Part shown: positions 26,027 through 32,418 of the stretch, piece by piece
How positions within the stretch are numbered: position 1 is the stretch's first letter
Layout of the letters: every line of letters begins with the position of its first letter
Source: Candidatus Atabeyarchaeum deiterrae
GTDB lineage: Archaea > Asgardarchaeota > Atabeyarchaeia > Atabeyarchaeales > Atabeyarchaeaceae
Assembly: GCA_037310415.1 (NCBI GenBank)
Contig: CP147780.1
Span: 2,528,001 to 2,592,000, forward strand
Direction: 5' to 3'
Length of the DNA: 64,000 nt
Position numbers and translations under genes: made by a program
Notes under the pieces: generated by a model
What the model saw: only the letters and a program-made list of their open reading frames with translations
Told to the model about the DNA's origin: nothing
Databases searched by the model: none

Positions 26027-27463
26027 TCAGGTGATATCTAAACCGAGTTTTCCTGGGTTCATTATATTGTTCGGATCTAATGCCTTCTTCAATTTCACGA
26101 GGACTTCGTACGAGGAACCGAGTTCAGTTTTCAGGAATTTCCCTTTTAGCAGTCCTATGCTGTGGTGGTGACTCATTGTTCCTCCTGTGTCTAATGCGGC
26201 TTTCATTCCTTCTTCCCAGCATTTCTTGTAGATCTCTTCAGCTCGAATGTCATCAGACTCAGTTAAGACGAATATCATGTATATGGATCCGCCTTCAGTG
26301 TAGAAGTGTGAGAAGTGAGCCATGGCTTGAACCCGACCGCTTTTTTCGACGGCTTTCTTGACGTTCTGGTACAAATCCTCAAGCTTGTCATATGTGGCTC
26401 CGACATCAATTGTGTCGGCCAGCATGTGCATTCTTGCGTAGACGGGGTTCGGGTAGTACATGTTGTATCTCTTGCCAAACCATTTTTCCGCTTCTTCTGG
26501 TCCTAGGTCATTTCCTCCTTCTTCTTGGCAGATCTGGGTTGCTGCTTTCTCCTCAGCTCTAACAACGTCTTCGTTTCCTTCGAAGGTGAGTATTAGGAAG
26601 CAGTGTTTCCTTGGGATCTTTACCATCCCGAGGACTAGCATTGCATCCGTCTCGTCGTAGAGTCTAATGAGGCAGGGAATCACGTTCTTCCTGTAGAGTT
26701 TTCTCACTGCCTCGAGCCCACTGTGTAAGCTCGGTAAAATGAAACCTCTGAAGCGCCTCTCTTCAGGAAGCGGCATTATCCTGAACGTCAGCTCCGTTAT
26801 GATCCCCAACGTTCCTTCGGAACCTATGAAAATCTGGTTCAGGTTTGGACCAGTTGATGACTTTGGAGCTTTCCTTGTTCTGATGACTTCCCCCGTGGGT
26901 AGCACAGCTTCTAAACAGACAACCATGTCTTCTACTCTGCCGTATTTCGATGAGAATGTTCCAGCTGAGCGGCAGGCAGCAAATCCGCCTACCGATGAGC
27001 AGTACATGGAGGCTGGTTGATGAGGAAAGGTATAACCTCGCTTGTTGAGTGCATTCTCCAAGTCTTGACCAATGACTCCTGCTTGCACAGTCACCGTTGC
27101 AGACTTCTCATCTATCTCAAGTATCTTATCGAGTTTCTTTAGGTCAACAATCACGCCACCGTGAATGGGAATGGTTCCACCAGTTACTCCCGCACCGCCT
27201 CCATAAGGAATTACTGGTATCGTTTTTTCATTGGCTACTTTGACTATCTCTGCAACTTGCAACGTGTTTTCGGGCCAAACAATCACGTCGGGGAAAGGTT
27301 TGATGATACCTCTCTTGAACTCCATCAGTCTAAGAGACCAAGTATCTTTGCTATACGAGATTTTATCGAACAGAGCATCAGATACATTCTCTTCTCCAAC
27401 GATGTCTGTCAACGCTTGTTTGACATTCCCAACTTCTTCCTGTGGAATCCTACTGCTACTCAA
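26027..27463 (-). CDS. FAD-binding oxidoreductase, alkyl-dihydroxyacetonephosphate synthase (AGPS)-like / VAO family
   Basis: PYGGGAGVTGG, SSVGGFAACRSAG.FSSKYG, GSEGTLGIIT, HFSH, SHHHSIG, LDPNNIMNPGK. Confidence 0.88.
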   Translation of the reverse strand: MSSSRIPQEEVGNVKQALTDIVGEENVSDALFDKISYSKDTWSLRLMEFKRGIIKPFPDVIVWPENTLQVAEIVKVANEKTIPVIPYGGGAGVTGGTIPIHGGVIVDLKKLDKILEIDEKSATVTVQAGVIGQDLENALNKRGYTFPHQPASMYCSSVGGFAACRSAGTFSSKYGRVEDMVVCLEAVLPTGEVIRTRKAPKSSTGPNLNQIFIGSEGTLGIITELTFRIMPLPEERRFRGFILPSLHSGLEAVRKLYRKNVIPCLIRLYDETDAMLVLGMVKIPRKHCFLILTFEGNEDVVRAEEKAATQICQEEGGNDLGPEEAEKWFGKRYNMYYPNPVYARMHMLADTIDVGATYDKLEDLYQNVKKAVEKSGRVQAMAHFSHFYTEGGSIYMIFVLTESDDIRAEEIYKKCWEEGMKAALDTGGTMSHHHSIGLLKGKFLKTELGSSYEVLVKLKKALDPNNIMNPGKLGLDIT

Positions 27464-28089
27464 TTTTCATCCTTCCTCAAGATACACATAGATTTGCATC
27501 TTGCGAAAACCTTGATTACAGATACCAGTCGAAGTTACGAAGTTGTACGACATGCAAGATTACATATTATACTTCGTACTCGGCTCATTTTTCTTAGAAC
27601 TCCATGCCATTGTCTCATACAGCTTTTTCGCTGCCTTAAAAGCTTTGTAGCGATCTTTCAGTAAGAAACTTGCTTCTAACGATCTAAGTCGTCGTTCCTA
27701 TCTTTTTCTCCAAGAAGTATAGTGTGCGTTTGAACATGCAACTCCCCAACGATATCATTTTTGTCAATAAAAACAAACATCACTTTTCTTTATGTACTTC
27801 CCCTTGGTCGCGTTGCTACTGATCATAATTGAGCCGATACCATCTATGGGCAAGCGCATTATCGAGAACTTGACCAGCCTGCTAGATTCCGAATCCTAGT
27901 TATTAGTCGCTTGATTCGAGTCGGCCTCTCGGCAGAGATAATGCTCTGAGATAGAAAGACCTGCGCCATTACATGCCATTCGCAAGCCAAAGCCTTCTCT
28001 CTGCCTCGACATAAATCCGAGGATAGTGTGTGCATATCAAATCCTAAGACACGTGCAACCTTCCCCACGCCAAACCACTTTCCCGTTTA

Positions 28090-29055
28090 CTACATTTTCG
28101 CCTGCTCATCACCGCTCTTTCTCAGCTCAGACTCAAGCCTTCTAAATTCCTCCACCGGGATCAGATGCATGTAGTACTTGGACTTGGGGCTGCCACGAAT
28201 GAGAATGTGCTTAATGTGGCCGCTCCTACACCATCTTATCACAGTTGAAAGCGAGATAAGACCATGCAACCTCTGAGCAACTTCAAAAGGCGAGTAGAAT
28301 CTCAACTTCAACTCTGAAAGCGCACTGCTCAACTTCTCAACCTTCAACAGCCACCGTTGCACCTTCCACGAGTACTCGGTTATTCCCCTGCTCAACAAAG
28401 CTTCCCTCCCACGTTTCAAGATAGAGACAACTCTACCATTACTCTCAGAACCTGCATACCCCACCGAGACACCGTTAGGAGTCAAGCCGTCGACATACGC
28501 TTCAAGGAAATCAATTAGAAACGGGAACAATGTTTGAGCGAAACCCCAATGGGAAACCACCGCACCAAAGACACTATCCCTGTAATCCATCCTTACACTA
28601 GCATGCCCATCTCCGTCAATGAGACCAGCAATGAAAGGAACACCACACCTTATACCAAATAACTTGTTCTCCACCAGAAAACTCTCGACTTCTGCAATAC
28701 CCTTCCCTCTAAGAGCTTGCTTATCGGGAAGAAATCTACAGAGGTCCTTCGAGTTTACAGCCACTGTCACCATCTTCTTCTTCGAATGCTTCCACTTGAA
28801 TGGATTCAAACCAACACGCTTTAACAATTTAACCACCCTACATGCCAACTCCTCCTCCTTGCCCTCAGTGAGAAGAAAGCTAACGGTATACGATGTACTA
28901 CTCCTCCTCGCATAAGTGTAGGACTGTCCATCGGCAAGAAATAACCCGCGAAGGTAGCTCCATTCCTCAACGGAGAGCGCATGAACTTGAAGCACACGCA
29001 GCCCACTGGGGCATGAGGAACCAGATCCCCCGGAACAACTATTATTATTGCACAA
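28090..29055 (-). CDS. Double-motif LAGLIDADG endonuclease-like protein with C-terminal excisionase/MerR-like HTH
   Basis: YLRGLFLADG and FIAGLIDGDG motifs; C-terminal YSPFEVAQRL..ISLSTVIRWCRSGHIK; true start may be slightly downstream of 29055. Confidence 0.85.
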   Translation of the reverse strand: MCNNNSCSGGSGSSCPSGLRVLQVHALSVEEWSYLRGLFLADGQSYTYARRSSTSYTVSFLLTEGKEEELACRVVKLLKRVGLNPFKWKHSKKKMVTVAVNSKDLCRFLPDKQALRGKGIAEVESFLVENKLFGIRCGVPFIAGLIDGDGHASVRMDYRDSVFGAVVSHWGFAQTLFPFLIDFLEAYVDGLTPNGVSVGYAGSESNGRVVSILKRGREALLSRGITEYSWKVQRWLLKVEKLSSALSELKLRFYSPFEVAQRLHGLISLSTVIRWCRSGHIKHILIRGSPKSKYYMHLIPVEEFRRLESELRKSGDEQAKM

Positions 29056-29059
29056 TTTT

Positions 29060-29255
29060 GGAAATCAACTCGAACGCCAGAGAGAGGCGATTTCCCAGGA
29101 TACTGTGAGACGGCCGAAGCATTCGCCCGACTCCGAGCCCACAGGGCGAGGGGAAAAGAACAAAGTAGACGTAGGTGGAACGTCCTCCAAACGTACGCCA
29201 CTTGTCCTTCTAGGACGAAGGCAGGGGAGCAGAGCCACTTTCTCCAAGCGACAAC
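29060..29255 (-). ncRNA. Putative structured RNA (multi-hairpin plus pseudoknot) upstream of the LAGLIDADG gene
   Basis: Minus-strand helices GTCCT/AGGAC, GGACGT/ACGTCT, TCGCCC/GGGCGA, CTGTGGG/CTCACAG, cTTCGg tetraloop, GGAAATC/GATTTCC, CGCC/GGCG; several pairs work only as G-U on this strand. Confidence 0.55.
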
Positions 29256-29277
29256 ACAGCAATCAGTATGAGGAGGA

Positions 29278-29290
29278 GCTATAAGAACCC
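29278..29290 (-). promoter_or_regulatory. Candidate TATA box for the structured RNA/LAGLIDADG transcript
   Basis: Minus strand GGTTCTTATAGC about 25 nt upstream of the start of the structured region. Confidence 0.4.
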
Positions 29291-29726
29291 CTAAAACGCA
29301 AACCAAAACAAAATCTGCACCAAAAACGCCAAGAAGAATCAAGATAAAACGAAAATACTATGCGAGCACCGTACGACGCCGTAAAACGAACCACTGTAAA
29401 ATGTGGAAAAGCCCAGCATGAACTTCAAATACTATGCAAAAAGCAGAGCACTTTCATCAACAGAAAAAGCCCGATAGAGCACGATTTCACGGATTCGAGC
29501 AAGGAAACCACCCAGCCCAACCAAAAAGACATGATCAACTGGAGAAATAAGAAATCTTGCCGAACTCCGAGTCAGAGATATTTCCTTTTCCAACTATGCC
29601 CATTGGAGCTTGTTAAATAGTCTCAAGTTCTTCGACTGGAATTCCACTTTCGCTCAATTCTAGGCGCTCCTTTAGAATAGACTCTGATATGTTTCGCCAA
29701 CGGTCTCAGGTTTTGAGGCTGTAAGC

Positions 29727-31010
29727 TCAGACGATCTTTTTGGCCAGTAGAACAGTCAGATCTTCGACTTTGGTCATTAGAGATGAATTTGAGACTTCTT
29801 CGCTAAGTCGTATTACACATGTGGGGCAGGGGGCCACAATTCGCTGCGGGTTCTTTCCCTGTTGGAGGATTTCTTTCAATCTTGCACTTGTGATCTTTGA
29901 TGCGACATTTGGTTTGTATGTGCTAAGAAGCCCTCCTGCGCCACAGCATTGCTGGCGGATGTTTCGAGTTGTCACCTCAACTCCGGGTAGTGTTTTCGCG
30001 ACTTCAATGATGTAATCTTGAATTCGCCTGCTTAGATGTCTGGTCAAGTGACATGCGGGGTGAATAGCAACTCTTTCGATAGTCTCCTTCTTCTTTCCCT
30101 GTTTTGCCTTCGCTAGCTTCATGACTTTGTCCAAGCCAACGTCCTCAACCAAATACTCCGTGAGATGTTTCACGCGTATCCCCGAATTCGATTCTAACTT
30201 CGTAAACGAATTTTGAAGCGTATTTGCACATCCAGCGCACGTGGCTACAACTGTCTTCGCTCCGACTTGCTTGACTCTCTCAAATGTTGAGGCTGCCAGC
30301 TTGCTGGCTAGCTCGACATCCCCTATTAGGGTTGCCGGGAGACCGCAGCATGCTTCATTCTTCATTAGTGTGTAGTCTGTTCCAAGTTTCTCTAGGGTAA
30401 GTTTTCCTGACTCTCTGATTTCAAGTGATCTGTGAGTTGATATGCAACCCGCAAAGTAAACGACATCTGCTGACTCCTTATAGATGTCCCGCTTGTACGG
30501 TAGACCGAGGTCCTTCACTGCTGATTCCGCCAGATCAATTCGAAGCTGTTCATCTTCGGGAACCAAACTCGTCCCGTATCGGGATAGGTTCTTATGCATC
30601 ACTTTATGGCTCTCGGGGATAATTTCTGGCCTCAATTTGAATATCTTTGCTCTAATTGCACTCACGATTTCTGGAACCGGTACTTTCTCAGGGCATATTT
30701 CTTCGCACGCTCCGCATTCACTACAACTGTAAACCAGGTCCTTAACGTTCCAGAAATCTGGATTCACACGCGAGAGAGTTGTTGCCATACTTCTCGGACC
30801 AAGAAAGACGTCGAATGATGTTGCTTCCAAGACAGGACAAGACGGAAGACATACGCCACAGTTCAAGCATTTGCCGAGCTCCGCAATCAACTTGTCCTCT
30901 CCTGGCTCAGCCTGAAGCAAGTTCAGTGACTTCACTTTTTCCTTTATGAAGTCATATCCTGCAATACTGCTACTTGAAGTCGTTTTGCCTTCTGCGGTCA
31001 TTTCTATCAT
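29727..31010 (-). CDS. glpC: Anaerobic glycerol-3-phosphate dehydrogenase subunit C-like Fe-S protein
   Basis: CLNCGVC..SCP, CSECGAC..ICP, ACCG, HPACH, CCGAGG; directly follows glpB. Confidence 0.8.
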   Translation of the reverse strand: MIEMTAEGKTTSSSSIAGYDFIKEKVKSLNLLQAEPGEDKLIAELGKCLNCGVCLPSCPVLEATSFDVFLGPRSMATTLSRVNPDFWNVKDLVYSCSECGACEEICPEKVPVPEIVSAIRAKIFKLRPEIIPESHKVMHKNLSRYGTSLVPEDEQLRIDLAESAVKDLGLPYKRDIYKESADVVYFAGCISTHRSLEIRESGKLTLEKLGTDYTLMKNEACCGLPATLIGDVELASKLAASTFERVKQVGAKTVVATCAGCANTLQNSFTKLESNSGIRVKHLTEYLVEDVGLDKVMKLAKAKQGKKKETIERVAIHPACHLTRHLSRRIQDYIIEVAKTLPGVEVTTRNIRQQCCGAGGLLSTYKPNVASKITSARLKEILQQGKNPQRIVAPCPTCVIRLSEEVSNSSLMTKVEDLTVLLAKKIV

Positions 31011-31035
31011 TGCACCCCAATGTTGTTCTTCCTTG

Positions 31036-32418
31036 TCAATTCCTTGATGCCTCATCGCCTGCCACGTAGCCTGTGCTTATTGCTACGCCGTACCGACATC
31101 CACCACTTGTATGACTGAAGCCAGAGAGGATGTTTCCGCAGGCGAACAGATTGCCGTATATGACCTCTCCTTGAGTCGTAGTCGGTTGCATGTTTTCGTT
31201 CACTTTGACCCCGATCGAGAACACTGAATGCCCCCCCATTGGAACAGCTTCGCTGGAGAGCATCGTTCTAATGAACACGCCATCTGCTTCCCTGCCGTTT
31301 TCGTCGAAGAGCGGTAAGTTCAGAAGCGGTTCTTTGGCTGTTTCGTCCTTCTCGACGATTCCTCCACCAATGAAGCTGCCAGTTGCTAGGACAAACTTCT
31401 CAGCTTCGACCTGGAATTTTCTTTCACCTGACACTACAGTCATATTTCTCAAGGTTTTTCCTTCAGCTTCGAACGCGCTAGTCTCGTATGGCAGCATAAT
31501 GGGGACTCCTGAGTCACTGGCAGAGTCATCTAACGCCAGCTGCAACCTGTAGCCGAGAACTGAAGGTGGAGTCAGATTCACGCATTCAAATGGTATCAGA
31601 CCAGATTCTTCACCAATGATTTTCATGTTTTCCTCGACGTTTCTTATTCCCATGCATGGCGGCAAACATGCGTGCGTTGCTCCCAGCCCATTCGCAGCAC
31701 CTGCAATCATGCGCCCGACTTTTTTCGCAACTCCTTCCTCGCGTTCGATCTCTCTAGCCACTTCGATGCTGAGCAACGTGTTTCTGCCTTCAAAGTTGGG
31801 CAAGTCGATTACTGTACTGCTGCACCCGTTCACTTCGAGGGGGAGACGTAGAATGCTCTTTATCGACGTGAAATTCTGATAACATCGATTGGGGTCGTAG
31901 TCAGAGTGTCTCTTGAATCCTACAAACACAATTCTCCCCTTCTCCATTCGTGTCAGATCTCCTCTTCCAACGCTTGGAGGAGCGAGACAAGTTGTTCTGA
32001 TTAGCCCAATGGAATTGATAATAAGCATATTATGTTCGAGTGAGCCTTCAACAGGATATTTCTCATTCCGCATATCCTCTTTGAAATCCGAAATTGCCTT
32101 AGTTATGGTTTCACCACAACCATTTTCGCCTTCCCTGAGCGGGCGGCTTGTATTCTGTGACTCACGTTTCAGGATTAGACCGTAAGGGTGATTCGGATTC
32201 GTGCCATACCTCTTTCGGAGGAGTCCGTCAGGGGGCTCCAACGGTATTCTGATTACTGTGGGATTAGCAATATCTGCGACACCTGTGGACATAGCTGTCG
32301 CTCCGTACGCTTTTGAAAAGACAGCTACTTGTTTGCCGCGTCGAGCAACTTGCTTGGCCGCTGTCAGTCCAGCAATCCCGCAACCAATTACTGCAACATC
32401 GGTCTTGAGGCTATTCAA
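31036..32418 (-). CDS. glpB: Anaerobic glycerol-3-phosphate dehydrogenase subunit B
   Basis: VIGCGIAG, GATAMSTG, PPSVLGYRL, VLATGSFIGGG, NLFACGNIL. Confidence 0.88.
   Translation of the reverse strand: MNSLKTDVAVIGCGIAGLTAAKQVARRGKQVAVFSKAYGATAMSTGVADIANPTVIRIPLEPPDGLLRKRYGTNPNHPYGLILKRESQNTSRPLREGENGCGETITKAISDFKEDMRNEKYPVEGSLEHNMLIINSIGLIRTTCLAPPSVGRGDLTRMEKGRIVFVGFKRHSDYDPNRCYQNFTSIKSILRLPLEVNGCSSTVIDLPNFEGRNTLLSIEVAREIEREEGVAKKVGRMIAGAANGLGATHACLPPCMGIRNVEENMKIIGEESGLIPFECVNLTPPSVLGYRLQLALDDSASDSGVPIMLPYETSAFEAEGKTLRNMTVVSGERKFQVEAEKFVLATGSFIGGGIVEKDETAKEPLLNLPLFDENGREADGVFIRTMLSSEAVPMGGHSVFSIGVKVNENMQPTTTQGEVIYGNLFACGNILSGFSHTSGGCRYGVAISTGYVAGDEASRN

What the first reader, a model, noticed from the sequence alone, without database searches (positions are those of the whole stretch)
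28090..29290. Free-standing LAGLIDADG-HTH nuclease preceded by a ~190-nt pseudoknotted putative RNA: candidate RNA-associated mobile system
Seen: on the minus strand a TATA-like box (~29280) is followed ~25 nt later by a GC-rich, densely paired tract (29255-29060). It holds a GCC/CTT/GTCCT-AGA-AGGAC/AAG/GGC hairpin, a GGACGT/ACGTCT hairpin, and a TCGCCC/GGGCGA stem whose inner CTGTGGG can pair with downstream CTCACAG (pseudoknot). It also has a cUUCGg tetraloop and a terminal GGAAATC/GATTTCC stem enclosing CGCC/GGCG. G-U pairs favour the ORF strand. The ORF directly follows and keeps the acidic residue in both LAGLIDADG motifs (FLADG, IDGDG). Known: LAGLIDADG genes usually sit in introns or inteins, and other nucleases (IscB, TnpB, HEARO-linked HNH) use an adjacent structured RNA. 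Inference: no host rRNA/tRNA or intein is evident, so the RNA may be a cognate ribozyme, scaffold/guide or regulatory leader of an undescribed element.
Basis: partly seen in the sequence, partly recalled or inferred. Interest (0 to 1): 0.85.

Follow-up and report, generated by a model that had tools for sequence, protein, structure and literature searches.

The report
Conserved folded leader of archaeal homing-endonuclease genes
In front of a selfish DNA-cutting (LAGLIDADG) gene of a wetland Asgard archaeon lies a ~190-base folded RNA leader, absent from the RNA family catalogue and far better conserved than the gene, whose last hairpin hides the ribosome-binding site, so it most likely keeps the nuclease switched down.

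Summary
The ORF 28090..29055(-) is a single-chain LAGLIDADG nuclease with a C-terminal HTH. Both catalytic Asp are kept, and the fold resembles I-DmoI and I-AniI.

The ~190 nt in front of it belong to an RNA family with no Rfam match. I collected 19 full copies from three Atabeyarchaeia (Asgard) genomes and from metagenomes. Every one sits directly 5' of a gene of this nuclease family.

- **Conservation:** leaders are about 80% identical, while the proteins are about 37% identical. The two measures are uncorrelated.
- **Structure:** a conserved TATA-like box is followed by a closing stem, a three-way junction with a 24-bp hairpin, a linker and a terminal hairpin. That last hairpin pairs the Shine-Dalgarno GAGGUGAU with a copy of the 16S rRNA 3' tail. 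A UUG start usually follows.
- **Pairing:** 93.7% of cells pair, G-U far outnumbers A-C, and covariation is sparse.
- **Folding:** better copies fold at z = -8.8 and -5.1. The window copy folds at z = -1.2.

Best reading (about 0.5): a cis-acting leader that represses translation of a mobile homing-endonuclease gene, as in T-even phage endonuclease genes. No test supported a guide, ribozyme or intron role. The scan earlier noted analogous leaders in other archaea (Thermofilum, Caldarchaeum, Iainarchaeota). No RNA data were available.

The parts
29279..29291 (-). Promoter-like BRE/TATA block, GGGGTTCTTATAG.
   Evidence: It is conserved as G(G/T)GTTCTTATAG in at least 9 of 12 homologous copies, 50-70 nt upstream of the conserved core. 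That it acts as a promoter is inferred.
29042..29246 (-). Conserved structured leader: the match to covariance model R1, running into the first codons of the ORF.
   Evidence: The window scores 189 bits, E 4e-42. There are 19 full-length homologs. The consensus structure pairs in 93.7% of cells.
29213..29222 (-). 5' strand of closing stem P1 (GCCUUCGUCC). It pairs with 29119-29128.
   Evidence: RNAalifold consensus. Helix 1 pairs in 89% of cells over 19 copies. In the window it reads as a 10-bp helix with one mismatch.
29154..29211 (-). P2, a long hairpin of about 24 bp. It runs AGAAGGACAAGUGGCGUACGU ... ACGUCUACUUUGUUCUUUU.
   Evidence: Helix 2 pairs in 96.7% of cells. Four pairs carry double changes; pair 55:80 reads UG12, AU5, CG1, UA1.
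29129..29153 (-). P3, the variable hairpin of the three-way junction.
   Evidence: Helices 3 and 4. Length varies, with 30-nt insertions in L015, L029 and L030.
29119..29128 (-). 3' strand of P1 (GGGCGAAUGC).
29096..29118 (-). Linker between the junction domain and the Shine-Dalgarno hairpin. In better copies its GGGCGCC pairs with a 5' GGCGCCC to form an outer stem, P0.
   Evidence: The minimum-free-energy fold of L003 shows P0. Support across copies is partial.
29062..29093 (-). P4, the Shine-Dalgarno-sequestering hairpin. The 5' arm is AAAUCGCCUC (a copy of the 16S 3' tail) and the 3' arm is GAGUUGAUUU (the SD, weakened here).
   Evidence: The 16S 3' end is GGAUCACCUCCU. Helix 5 pairs in 95.7% of cells. 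The SD is paired with probability 0.9-1.0 in most copies and 0.82 in the window. P4 free energy is -11.6 kcal/mol typically and -5.9 in the window.
28090..29055 (-). LAGLIDADG-HTH homing-endonuclease gene: 321 aa, UUG start.
   Evidence: Pfam. Invariant catalytic Asp residues. AlphaFold2 model with pLDDT 88. The top Foldseek matches are I-AniI and I-DmoI.
27859..28089 (-). Decayed C-terminal extension. After the stops TAG TAA the same frame continues into a degenerate second HTH (VARVLGFDMHTL...).
   Evidence: Read from the sequence. The whole-genome profile match runs on through '1 TAG, 1 TAA'. Longer paralogs carry a second HTH at this position.
27464..29726 (-). The whole 2263-nt insert between the glpC-like and AGPS-like genes.
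   Evidence: In the sister genome G001 the two orthologous genes lie about 45 nt apart, an empty site.

Best explanation
The stretch is the promoter, 5' leader and coding region of a free-standing, probably mobile LAGLIDADG-HTH homing-endonuclease gene. The gene belongs to a family that has expanded in Atabeyarchaeia (Asgard archaea).

The mRNA would start about 25 nt after a conserved TATA-like box. It carries a leader of about 190 nt that folds on the sense strand into these parts:
- a closing stem (P0/P1);
- a three-way junction with a 24-bp hairpin (P2) and a variable hairpin (P3);
- a linker;
- a terminal 10-bp hairpin (P4).

In P4 the Shine-Dalgarno GAGGUGAU is paired with AAAUCACCUC, which copies the 3' tail of the host's 16S rRNA. 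A weak UUG start follows 5-9 nt later. The leader therefore most likely acts in cis to keep translation of a potentially harmful nuclease low.

The strongly conserved 5' junction domain presumably stabilises this off state or receives a host signal or factor that relieves it.

Shown here: conservation, pairing, strand, SD identity and sequestration, and association with the gene. Inferred: transcription from the TATA box, translational repression, and any relief mechanism.

The window copy is a decaying member. Its SD and P4 are mutated, its second HTH is cut off by stops, and its fold is no better than shuffles.
For: 1. All 19 full-length leader copies lie directly 5' of a gene of this family.
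2. Leaders have a median identity of 0.80 and proteins 0.37. The two are uncorrelated (Spearman 0.01). Indels of 1, 2, 4 and 13 nt and frame switches exclude coding.
3. The consensus structure pairs in 93.7% of cells, against 39-50% when partners are slid. Eight cells carry double changes, against 2.5+/-1.3 in shuffles.
4. G-U cells number 40 and A-C cells 6, so selection acts on the sense-strand RNA. RNAalifold gives -49.2 kcal/mol on the sense strand and -41.3 on the antisense strand.
5. The leaders of L003 and L010 fold at z = -8.83 and -5.11, in the same architecture.
6. The genome's 16S rRNA ends in GGAUCACCUCCU. The SD is paired with probability 0.9-1.0 in most copies, and P4 has a free energy of -11.6 kcal/mol.
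7. The conserved TATA-like box lies upstream of the whole leader. The start codon is read as UUG in 16 of 19 copies.
8. A precedent exists. RBS-sequestering hairpins control I-TevI, I-TevII, I-TevIII, segB and mobE in T-even phages (PMC2988022).
9. The gene behaves as a mobile element. There is an empty site in G001. Copy number is 4, 6 and about 12 in the three genomes, and several copies carry stops or frameshifts.
Against: - No transcript evidence is available, so the transcription start and the inclusion of the leader in the mRNA are inferred.
- No conserved alternative pairing that would free the SD was found. No TATA-like box was seen in the linker by inspection of the alignment. The 'on' state is therefore unexplained.
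- A 10-bp hairpin would be enough to mask the SD. The roughly 130-nt junction domain is nearly invariant even inside helices, and masking does not account for it.
- Covariation is sparse: 4 of 48 pairs show double changes. The structure therefore rests mainly on compatibility and on the G-U bias.
- About half of the family's genes lack the leader.
Confidence: 0.5

Rival explanations
1. The leader is an RNA partner of the nuclease. It would be a stable RNA, or an RNA domain of the mRNA, bound by the LAGLIDADG protein as intron RNAs are bound by LAGLIDADG maturases. It could serve autoregulation, assembly of a ribonucleoprotein, or target choice.
For: - The association with this gene family is strict.
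- The nearest folds include I-AniI and the bI3 maturase, which are LAGLIDADG proteins that bind RNA.
- The large conserved junction domain is unexplained by SD masking alone.
Against: - Leader divergence does not follow the divergence of its own protein, and no co-evolution is visible.
- Leader presence is scattered over the protein tree, with close relatives lacking it.
- No guide-like variable segment has a match elsewhere in the genome.
- There is no Rfam HEARO or omega-type match.
Confidence: 0.15
2. The leader is a riboswitch-like or factor-sensing switch. The three-way junction would be a ligand- or host-protein-binding domain that couples nuclease expression to host state through the SD hairpin.
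For: - The architecture is a junction domain, then a linker, then an SD hairpin.
- Near-invariance across paralogs suggests a partner common to all copies rather than each copy's own protein.
- RNAalifold finds a competing pairing of the P1 3' strand with the linker.
Against: - No conserved pairing frees the SD in any alternative fold.
- Helices are conserved in sequence rather than covarying, which is unusual for aptamers.
- No known riboswitch family matches.
Confidence: 0.15
3. Conservation reflects a function at the DNA level, or gene conversion. Candidates are an operator or inverted repeat bound by the HTH domain, a recombination or homing substrate, or repeated homogenisation between copies.
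For: - P2 is an almost perfect inverted repeat that is conserved in sequence.
- The antisense strand of L003 folds as well as the sense strand.
- Leader identity is decoupled from protein identity, which recombination could also produce.
Against: - Mismatches are strongly biased to G-U on the sense strand, 40 against 6.
- Leaders within one genome are no more alike than leaders from different genomes. Window and L003 share 76%, while the orthologs L003 and L031 share 88%, so there is no sign of concerted evolution.
- The SD/anti-SD logic is a feature of RNA.
Confidence: 0.1
4. The leader is a ribozyme or the remnant of an intron core. Examples are a processing or capping ribozyme in front of the endonuclease mRNA as in twin-ribozyme introns, or a former bulge-helix-bulge or group I intron that became free-standing.
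For: - The nearest structural relatives of the protein are archaeal intron-encoded enzymes, I-DmoI and I-Tsp061I.
- The size and junction architecture recall small ribozymes.
- The host lineage is unusually rich in tRNA introns (PMC11291895).
Against: - No intron or ribozyme family matches, even at E<=1.
- Copies lie in intergenic DNA, and no tRNA or rRNA gene was found next to any of the 19 copies.
- No conserved 3' element lies beyond the ORF.
- No canonical bulge-helix-bulge motif was seen by inspection of the consensus.
Confidence: 0.07

Closest known systems
RBS-sequestering RNA hairpins of T-even phage homing-endonuclease genes: I-TevI, I-TevII, I-TevIII, segB and mobE (PMC2988022)
   Same: - A consensus Shine-Dalgarno just upstream of a homing-endonuclease start codon is locked in a stable hairpin, so translation is inefficient.
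- The gene is selfish, and its product is potentially harmful.
   Different: - In the phages, a late promoter inside or next to the hairpin makes transcripts that lack the inhibitory arm. Here the only conserved promoter-like box lies upstream of the whole leader, and no internal one is seen.
- Here the hairpin is the tail of a conserved three-way-junction RNA of about 190 nt with no phage counterpart.
- The host is an Asgard archaeon, and the nuclease is LAGLIDADG-HTH.
I-DmoI, I-Tsp061I and I-AniI: monomeric two-motif LAGLIDADG homing endonucleases
   Same: - Two LAGLIDADG motifs carry the catalytic Asp.
- The predicted fold matches at Foldseek E about 1e-8, with a TM-score of 0.73 normalised to I-DmoI.
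   Different: - Those enzymes are encoded inside rRNA or group I introns. This one is free-standing in intergenic DNA.
- This one has one or two C-terminal HTH_17-like domains and its own promoter and leader.
- Sequence identity is only 15-18%.
Structured leaders of free-standing LAGLIDADG genes noted earlier in this scan, in Thermofilum, Caldarchaeum subterraneum and Iainarchaeota (AI notes)
   Same: A long folded RNA lies directly 5' of an archaeal LAGLIDADG gene. In the Iainarchaeota case it masks the ribosome-binding site.
   Different: - I did not test homology to those leaders.
- Those elements are reported to lie next to tRNA genes or CRISPR arrays, or to carry a small ORF. Here I found no tRNA next to any of 19 copies and no conserved small ORF.
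HEARO/omega RNAs of IscB and TnpB (OMEGA systems)
   Same: A structured non-coding RNA lies next to the gene of a mobile-element nuclease.
   Different: - There is no Rfam match.
- There is no guide segment with a target match.
- The nuclease recognises DNA through protein in all known LAGLIDADG enzymes.
- The RNA does not co-diverge with the protein.
WhiA (bacterial LAGLIDADG-HTH transcription factor)
   Same: The domain order is the same: a LAGLIDADG scaffold followed by a C-terminal HTH.
   Different: - From my own knowledge, WhiA has lost the catalytic acidic residues. They are invariant here.
- The Pfam LAGLIDADG_WhiA match scores 15.1 bits, below the 23.2 cut-off.

Membership tests
LAGLIDADG homing endonuclease (protein) | Two LAGLIDADG motifs, each with the catalytic acidic residue | tested here: met
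   The motifs read LFLADG and LIDGDG. D42 and D149 are invariant in 11 paralogs.
LAGLIDADG homing endonuclease (protein) | Family profile match above the curated cut-off | tested here: met
   PF14528 LAGLIDADG_3 scores 33.8 bits against a cut-off of 22.5.
LAGLIDADG homing endonuclease (protein) | A pseudo-dimeric alpha-beta-beta-alpha-beta-beta-alpha fold | tested here: met
   The AlphaFold2 model has pLDDT 87.9. The top Foldseek hits are I-AniI and I-DmoI at E about 1e-8 and probability 1.00.
LAGLIDADG homing endonuclease (protein) | Site-specific DNA cleavage and homing | not testable with these tools
   The support is indirect only. There is an empty site in G001. The family is multi-copy, and copies include decayed ones.
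RBS-sequestering leader of homing-endonuclease genes (T-even phage type) | A Shine-Dalgarno complementary to the host 16S 3' end, 5-9 nt before the start codon | tested here: met
   The 16S rRNA ends in GGAUCACCUCCU. The SD is GAGGUGAU in 15 of 19 copies and GAGUUGAU in the window.
RBS-sequestering leader of homing-endonuclease genes (T-even phage type) | The SD enclosed in a stable hairpin | tested here: met
   P4 is 10 bp with a free energy of -11.6 kcal/mol. The SD is paired with probability 0.9-1.0 in most copies. P4 pairs in 95.7% of cells.
RBS-sequestering leader of homing-endonuclease genes (T-even phage type) | A second promoter that yields transcripts lacking the inhibitory arm | tested here: not met
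   - The linker 25-30 nt upstream of the P4 loop is G+C-rich, and no TATA-like box is seen there in the alignment.
- The only conserved TATA-like box lies upstream of the whole leader.
- This test was by inspection only.
Group I, group II or archaeal bulge-helix-bulge intron | A match to the intron RNA core, and location inside a host RNA or protein gene | tested here: not met
   - No Rfam match at gathering score or at E<=1.
- The copies lie in intergenic DNA, and no tRNA or rRNA gene was found next to any of them.
OMEGA/HEARO-type guide RNA | A conserved scaffold plus a variable guide that matches a target, and RNA that co-diverges with its nuclease | tested here: not met
   - No HEARO match.
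- No significant match to any leader segment elsewhere in the genome.
- Leader identity and protein identity are uncorrelated.
Riboswitch | A conserved aptamer with mutually exclusive pairings that expose or hide the SD | tested here: inconclusive
   - A junction domain and a competing pairing of the P1 3' strand with the linker exist.
- No conserved partner frees the SD.
- No known riboswitch class matches.
WhiA | A degenerate LAGLIDADG domain without catalytic residues, and a WhiA profile match | tested here: not met
   The catalytic Asp residues are kept. PF14527 scores 15.1 bits, below the 23.2 cut-off.

The most novel reading that the evidence does not exclude
The junction domain may be more than a translational mask. 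It could be a functional RNA partner of the element. One form would be a sensor that ties endonuclease expression to a host signal. Another would be an RNA bound by the LAGLIDADG protein, maturase-like, forming a ribonucleoprotein that takes part in the element's regulation or mobility. Analogous leaders were noted by this scan in three other archaeal phyla. Together they would point to a general, undescribed RNA layer of archaeal free-standing homing-endonuclease genes.
Probability: 0.25. Interest if true: 0.8.

Novelty: new variant of a known kind. Interest (0 to 1): 0.58.

Why it matters
This is a strongly conserved structured RNA of about 190 nt, and I found no catalogue entry or report for it. 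It comes from Asgard archaea, a lineage where almost nothing is known about post-transcriptional control.

Over protein divergences of about one substitution per site, the RNA stays about 80% identical. That level of constraint is rare for a 5' leader. It implies a function beyond a simple hairpin.

If the leader represses translation, it extends the logic of T-even phage homing-endonuclease control to archaea. It also offers a tractable model, with a clear SD/anti-SD hairpin, for how Asgard ribosomes use Shine-Dalgarno pairing.

If the junction domain binds a ligand, a host factor or the nuclease itself, it would be a new class of RNA regulator or ribonucleoprotein linked to a mobile element.

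The family also supplies about 100 diverse, probably active, single-chain LAGLIDADG enzymes with an extra HTH. These are of interest as meganuclease scaffolds.

Tried and rejected
- **RNA evidence:** no RNA holder was listed for the stretch. Laying four metatranscriptome runs (contigs) gave zero cover. This is no evidence either way.
- **Rfam:** nothing at gathering score on the window or on 19 loci, apart from one tRNA 7 kb from one copy. At E<=1 on five loci, only two chance-level hits appeared, both outside the leader.
- **Coding hypothesis for the leader:** in L003 the leader is open in frame with the gene, and one frame looks similar in several copies. However, 1-, 2-, 4- and 13-nt indels switch frames, 9 of 11 copies have an in-frame TGA inside the SD, and substitutions are not biased to third positions. 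Rejected.
- **Terminal repeats or target duplications around the 2.2-kb insert:** none convincing. No conserved sequence lies 3' of the ORF between copies.
- **Trans targets of leader segments in the genome:** only chance 12-14-mers.
- **Conserved anti-sequestor for the P4 5' arm:** best partners differ from copy to copy.
- **A second, different leader shared by the leaderless paralogs:** none found, apart from one orthologous pair.
- **tRNA adjacency**, a lead from an earlier scan note: not found.
- **Pattern scans:** two of nine metagenome hits and one of five genome hits to the DNA pattern were chance matches without a covariance-model hit.
- **Sigma-70 promoter and terminator scan:** not informative for an archaeon.
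- **Literature:** the searches and the two Atabeyarchaeia genome papers turned up no description of this RNA or of LAGLIDADG genes.
Full report
**1. What is in the window**

On the minus strand, 28090..29055 encodes a 321-aa protein. It matches Pfam LAGLIDADG_3 above the cut-off (33.8 bits against 22.5) and matches HTH_17 weakly. Both motifs keep the acidic residue (LFLADG, LIDGDG). In an alignment of 11 paralogs these residues are invariant. An AlphaFold2 model (pLDDT 87.9) is closest to the monomeric two-motif enzymes I-AniI and I-DmoI, at Foldseek E about 1e-8.

No tRNA, rRNA, intron or other Rfam family occurs in the window.

The genome is 2,756,679 bp in one contig. It is one of the two complete Atabeyarchaeia genomes from wetland soil (PMC11291895).

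**2. The window's own leader, taken alone, is unimpressive**

The 205 nt upstream fold at -68.8 kcal/mol. The z-score is -1.17 on the sense strand and -1.61 on the antisense strand. The comparative data reverse that verdict.

**3. The leader is a conserved element tied to this gene family**

- A DNA search of the genome found window 29237..29016 to be 77% identical to the region in front of a paralog whose protein is only 37-40% identical.
- A sister genome, G002, has five more copies.
- A covariance model built from six copies found further copies. These include one divergent copy in G001, and one degraded copy in G000 that lacks P2 and P3 and precedes a 76-aa gene remnant.
- A pattern scan of metagenome contigs added six copies.
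- Fetching the contigs of distant family members added six more.

In total there are 19 full-length leaders. Every one lies directly 5' of a LAGLIDADG-HTH gene.

In 151 sampled Asgard genomes, the RNA and the protein family were both found only in this one family of three genomes. Copy numbers there are 4, 6 and about 12. A profile search of 1.8 billion representative proteins gave 99 clusters at E<=1e-30.

About half of the genes lack the leader, and these share no alternative leader. On the protein tree, leader presence is scattered and needs 7 changes. This fits an ancestral leader with repeated loss, or exchange of the leader between copies.

**4. The leader is non-coding and under strong constraint**

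- Indels of 1, 2, 4 and 13 nt switch the reading frame between copies.
- Nine of 11 copies have an in-frame TGA inside the SD.
- Substitutions are not biased to third codon positions.

Median leader identity is 0.80, against 0.37 for the proteins, and the two are uncorrelated (Spearman 0.01). Leaders within one genome are not more alike than orthologous leaders across genomes. Concerted evolution is therefore not the simple explanation.

**5. Structure**

RNAalifold on six copies and the model-based alignment of 19 copies give the same architecture:
- a closing stem P1, extended in good copies by an outer stem P0;
- a three-way junction with a hairpin P2 of about 24 bp and a variable hairpin P3;
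- a linker of about 25 nt;
- a terminal 10-bp hairpin P4.

On 19 copies, 93.7% of cells form standard pairs, against 39-50% when partners are slid by one to three columns. Double changes are few: 4 pairs and 8 cells, against 2.5+/-1.3 cells in shuffles. The best example is pair 55:80, which reads UG12, AU5, CG1 and UA1.

Transition mismatches are strongly biased, with 40 G-U cells and 6 A-C cells. The sense-strand consensus is more stable than the antisense one, -49.2 against -41.3 kcal/mol.

The leaders of L003 and L010 fold into this architecture at z = -8.83 and -5.11.

The terminal stem is right. The GTCCT/AGGAC, GGACGT/ACGTCT and TCGCCC/GGGCGA helices, the pseudoknot and the UUCG loop are features of the window copy alone.

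**6. The 3' hairpin masks the ribosome-binding site**

The genome's 16S rRNA ends in GGAUCACCUCCU. The P4 3' arm is GAGGUGAU(UU), an 8-nt Shine-Dalgarno, and the 5' arm AAAUCACCUC repeats the rRNA tail. The start codon follows 5-9 nt later. I read it as UUG in 16 of 19 copies.

In partition-function folds the SD is paired with probability 0.9-1.0 in most copies. P4 alone is worth -11.6 kcal/mol.

A conserved G(G/T)GTTCTTATAG box lies 50-70 nt upstream of the core. A transcript from it would therefore contain the whole leader.

I found no conserved alternative partner that frees the SD. By inspection I found no internal promoter-like box either. How repression is relieved, if it is, is unknown.

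**7. The element looks mobile, and the window copy is decaying**

In G001 the orthologous glpC-like and AGPS-like genes are about 45 nt apart. In G000 they are 2263 nt apart, with the leader and gene in between. No terminal repeats or conserved 3' end were found.

Several copies carry stops or frameshifts.

In the window copy:
- the SD is GAGUUGAU;
- P4 is worth only -5.9 kcal/mol;
- the SD is paired with probability 0.82;
- after the stops TAG TAA the frame runs on into a degenerate second HTH.

**8. Interpretation**

The best-supported mechanism is a cis-acting 5' leader that holds translation of a selfish nuclease gene down by sequestering its SD. The closest precedent is the RBS-sequestering hairpins of I-TevI, I-TevII, I-TevIII, segB and mobE in T-even phages (PMC2988022). 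The phage device of an internal late promoter is not seen here.

The junction domain of about 130 nt is nearly invariant, and masking does not explain it. Its constancy across proteins that differ by about 60% suggests a partner common to all copies, such as a host factor, a ligand or the ribosome. A co-evolving cognate protein is less likely. This lowers, but does not exclude, the ribonucleoprotein or guide reading.

No test supported an intron or ribozyme reading. The G-U bias disfavours a DNA-level reading.

**9. Relation to earlier notes of this scan**

Other agents reported long folded leaders in front of free-standing LAGLIDADG genes in Thermofilum, Caldarchaeum and Iainarchaeota. These are unchecked AI notes. 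One of them reports RBS masking.

I did not test homology with those leaders. One claim, adjacency to tRNA genes, does not hold here. If the parallel is real, structured leaders may be a general feature of archaeal free-standing homing-endonuclease genes.

**10. Limits**

- There are no transcript data.
- Covariation is sparse because the sequence itself is so conserved.
- All copies come from one archaeal family and a few metagenomes, so they are not independent.
- The promoter, the transcription start and the repression are inferred.

Noticed in passing
window 27859-28089 (-): After the ORF's TAG TAA stops, the same frame continues into a degenerate second HTH (…GKVARVLGFDMHTLSSDLCRGR…). It resembles the second HTH_17-like domain of longer paralogs. 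The window gene is therefore a C-terminally truncated copy.
   Followed up: partly
L023:1501-1623 (-) = G000:C1:40019-40141: This is a degraded third leader copy in the same genome. P0/P1 and the SD hairpin are kept, P2 and P3 are replaced by 5 nt, and a 76-aa LAGLIDADG remnant ORF follows.
   Followed up: partly
window 29271-29432 (-) and L008:1501-1652 (G000:C1:1080080-1080231): A T-rich block upstream of the promoter is 68% identical to a block upstream of the paralog locus. In that locus a 225-aa ORF with a signal-peptide-like N-terminus lies between the block and the leader.
   Followed up: no
L012 (G002:C169) and L029 (Ga0315309_1000427): Both copies have intact leaders but frameshifted nuclease genes. 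This fits the invasion-and-decay cycle of homing-endonuclease genes.
   Followed up: partly
window 26027-27463 and 29727-31055; L040/L044 (G001:C1:2608530-2611310): The glpC-like CCG protein gene and the AGPS-like FAD oxidase gene are adjacent in G001, about 45 nt apart with an SD in the spacer. They probably form one operon, which the 2.2-kb insert splits in this genome.
   Followed up: partly
P0101 (5877 aa) and other long hits: Very large proteins carry 5-16 repeats that match the C-terminal HTH region of this family. The HTH_17-like module is therefore widely reused outside the nuclease family.
   Followed up: no
L050 and L068 upstream regions: Two leaderless orthologs, one in G002 and one in G001, share a different upstream stretch of 273 nt at 74% identity. 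It may be plain synteny or a second kind of leader.
   Followed up: no
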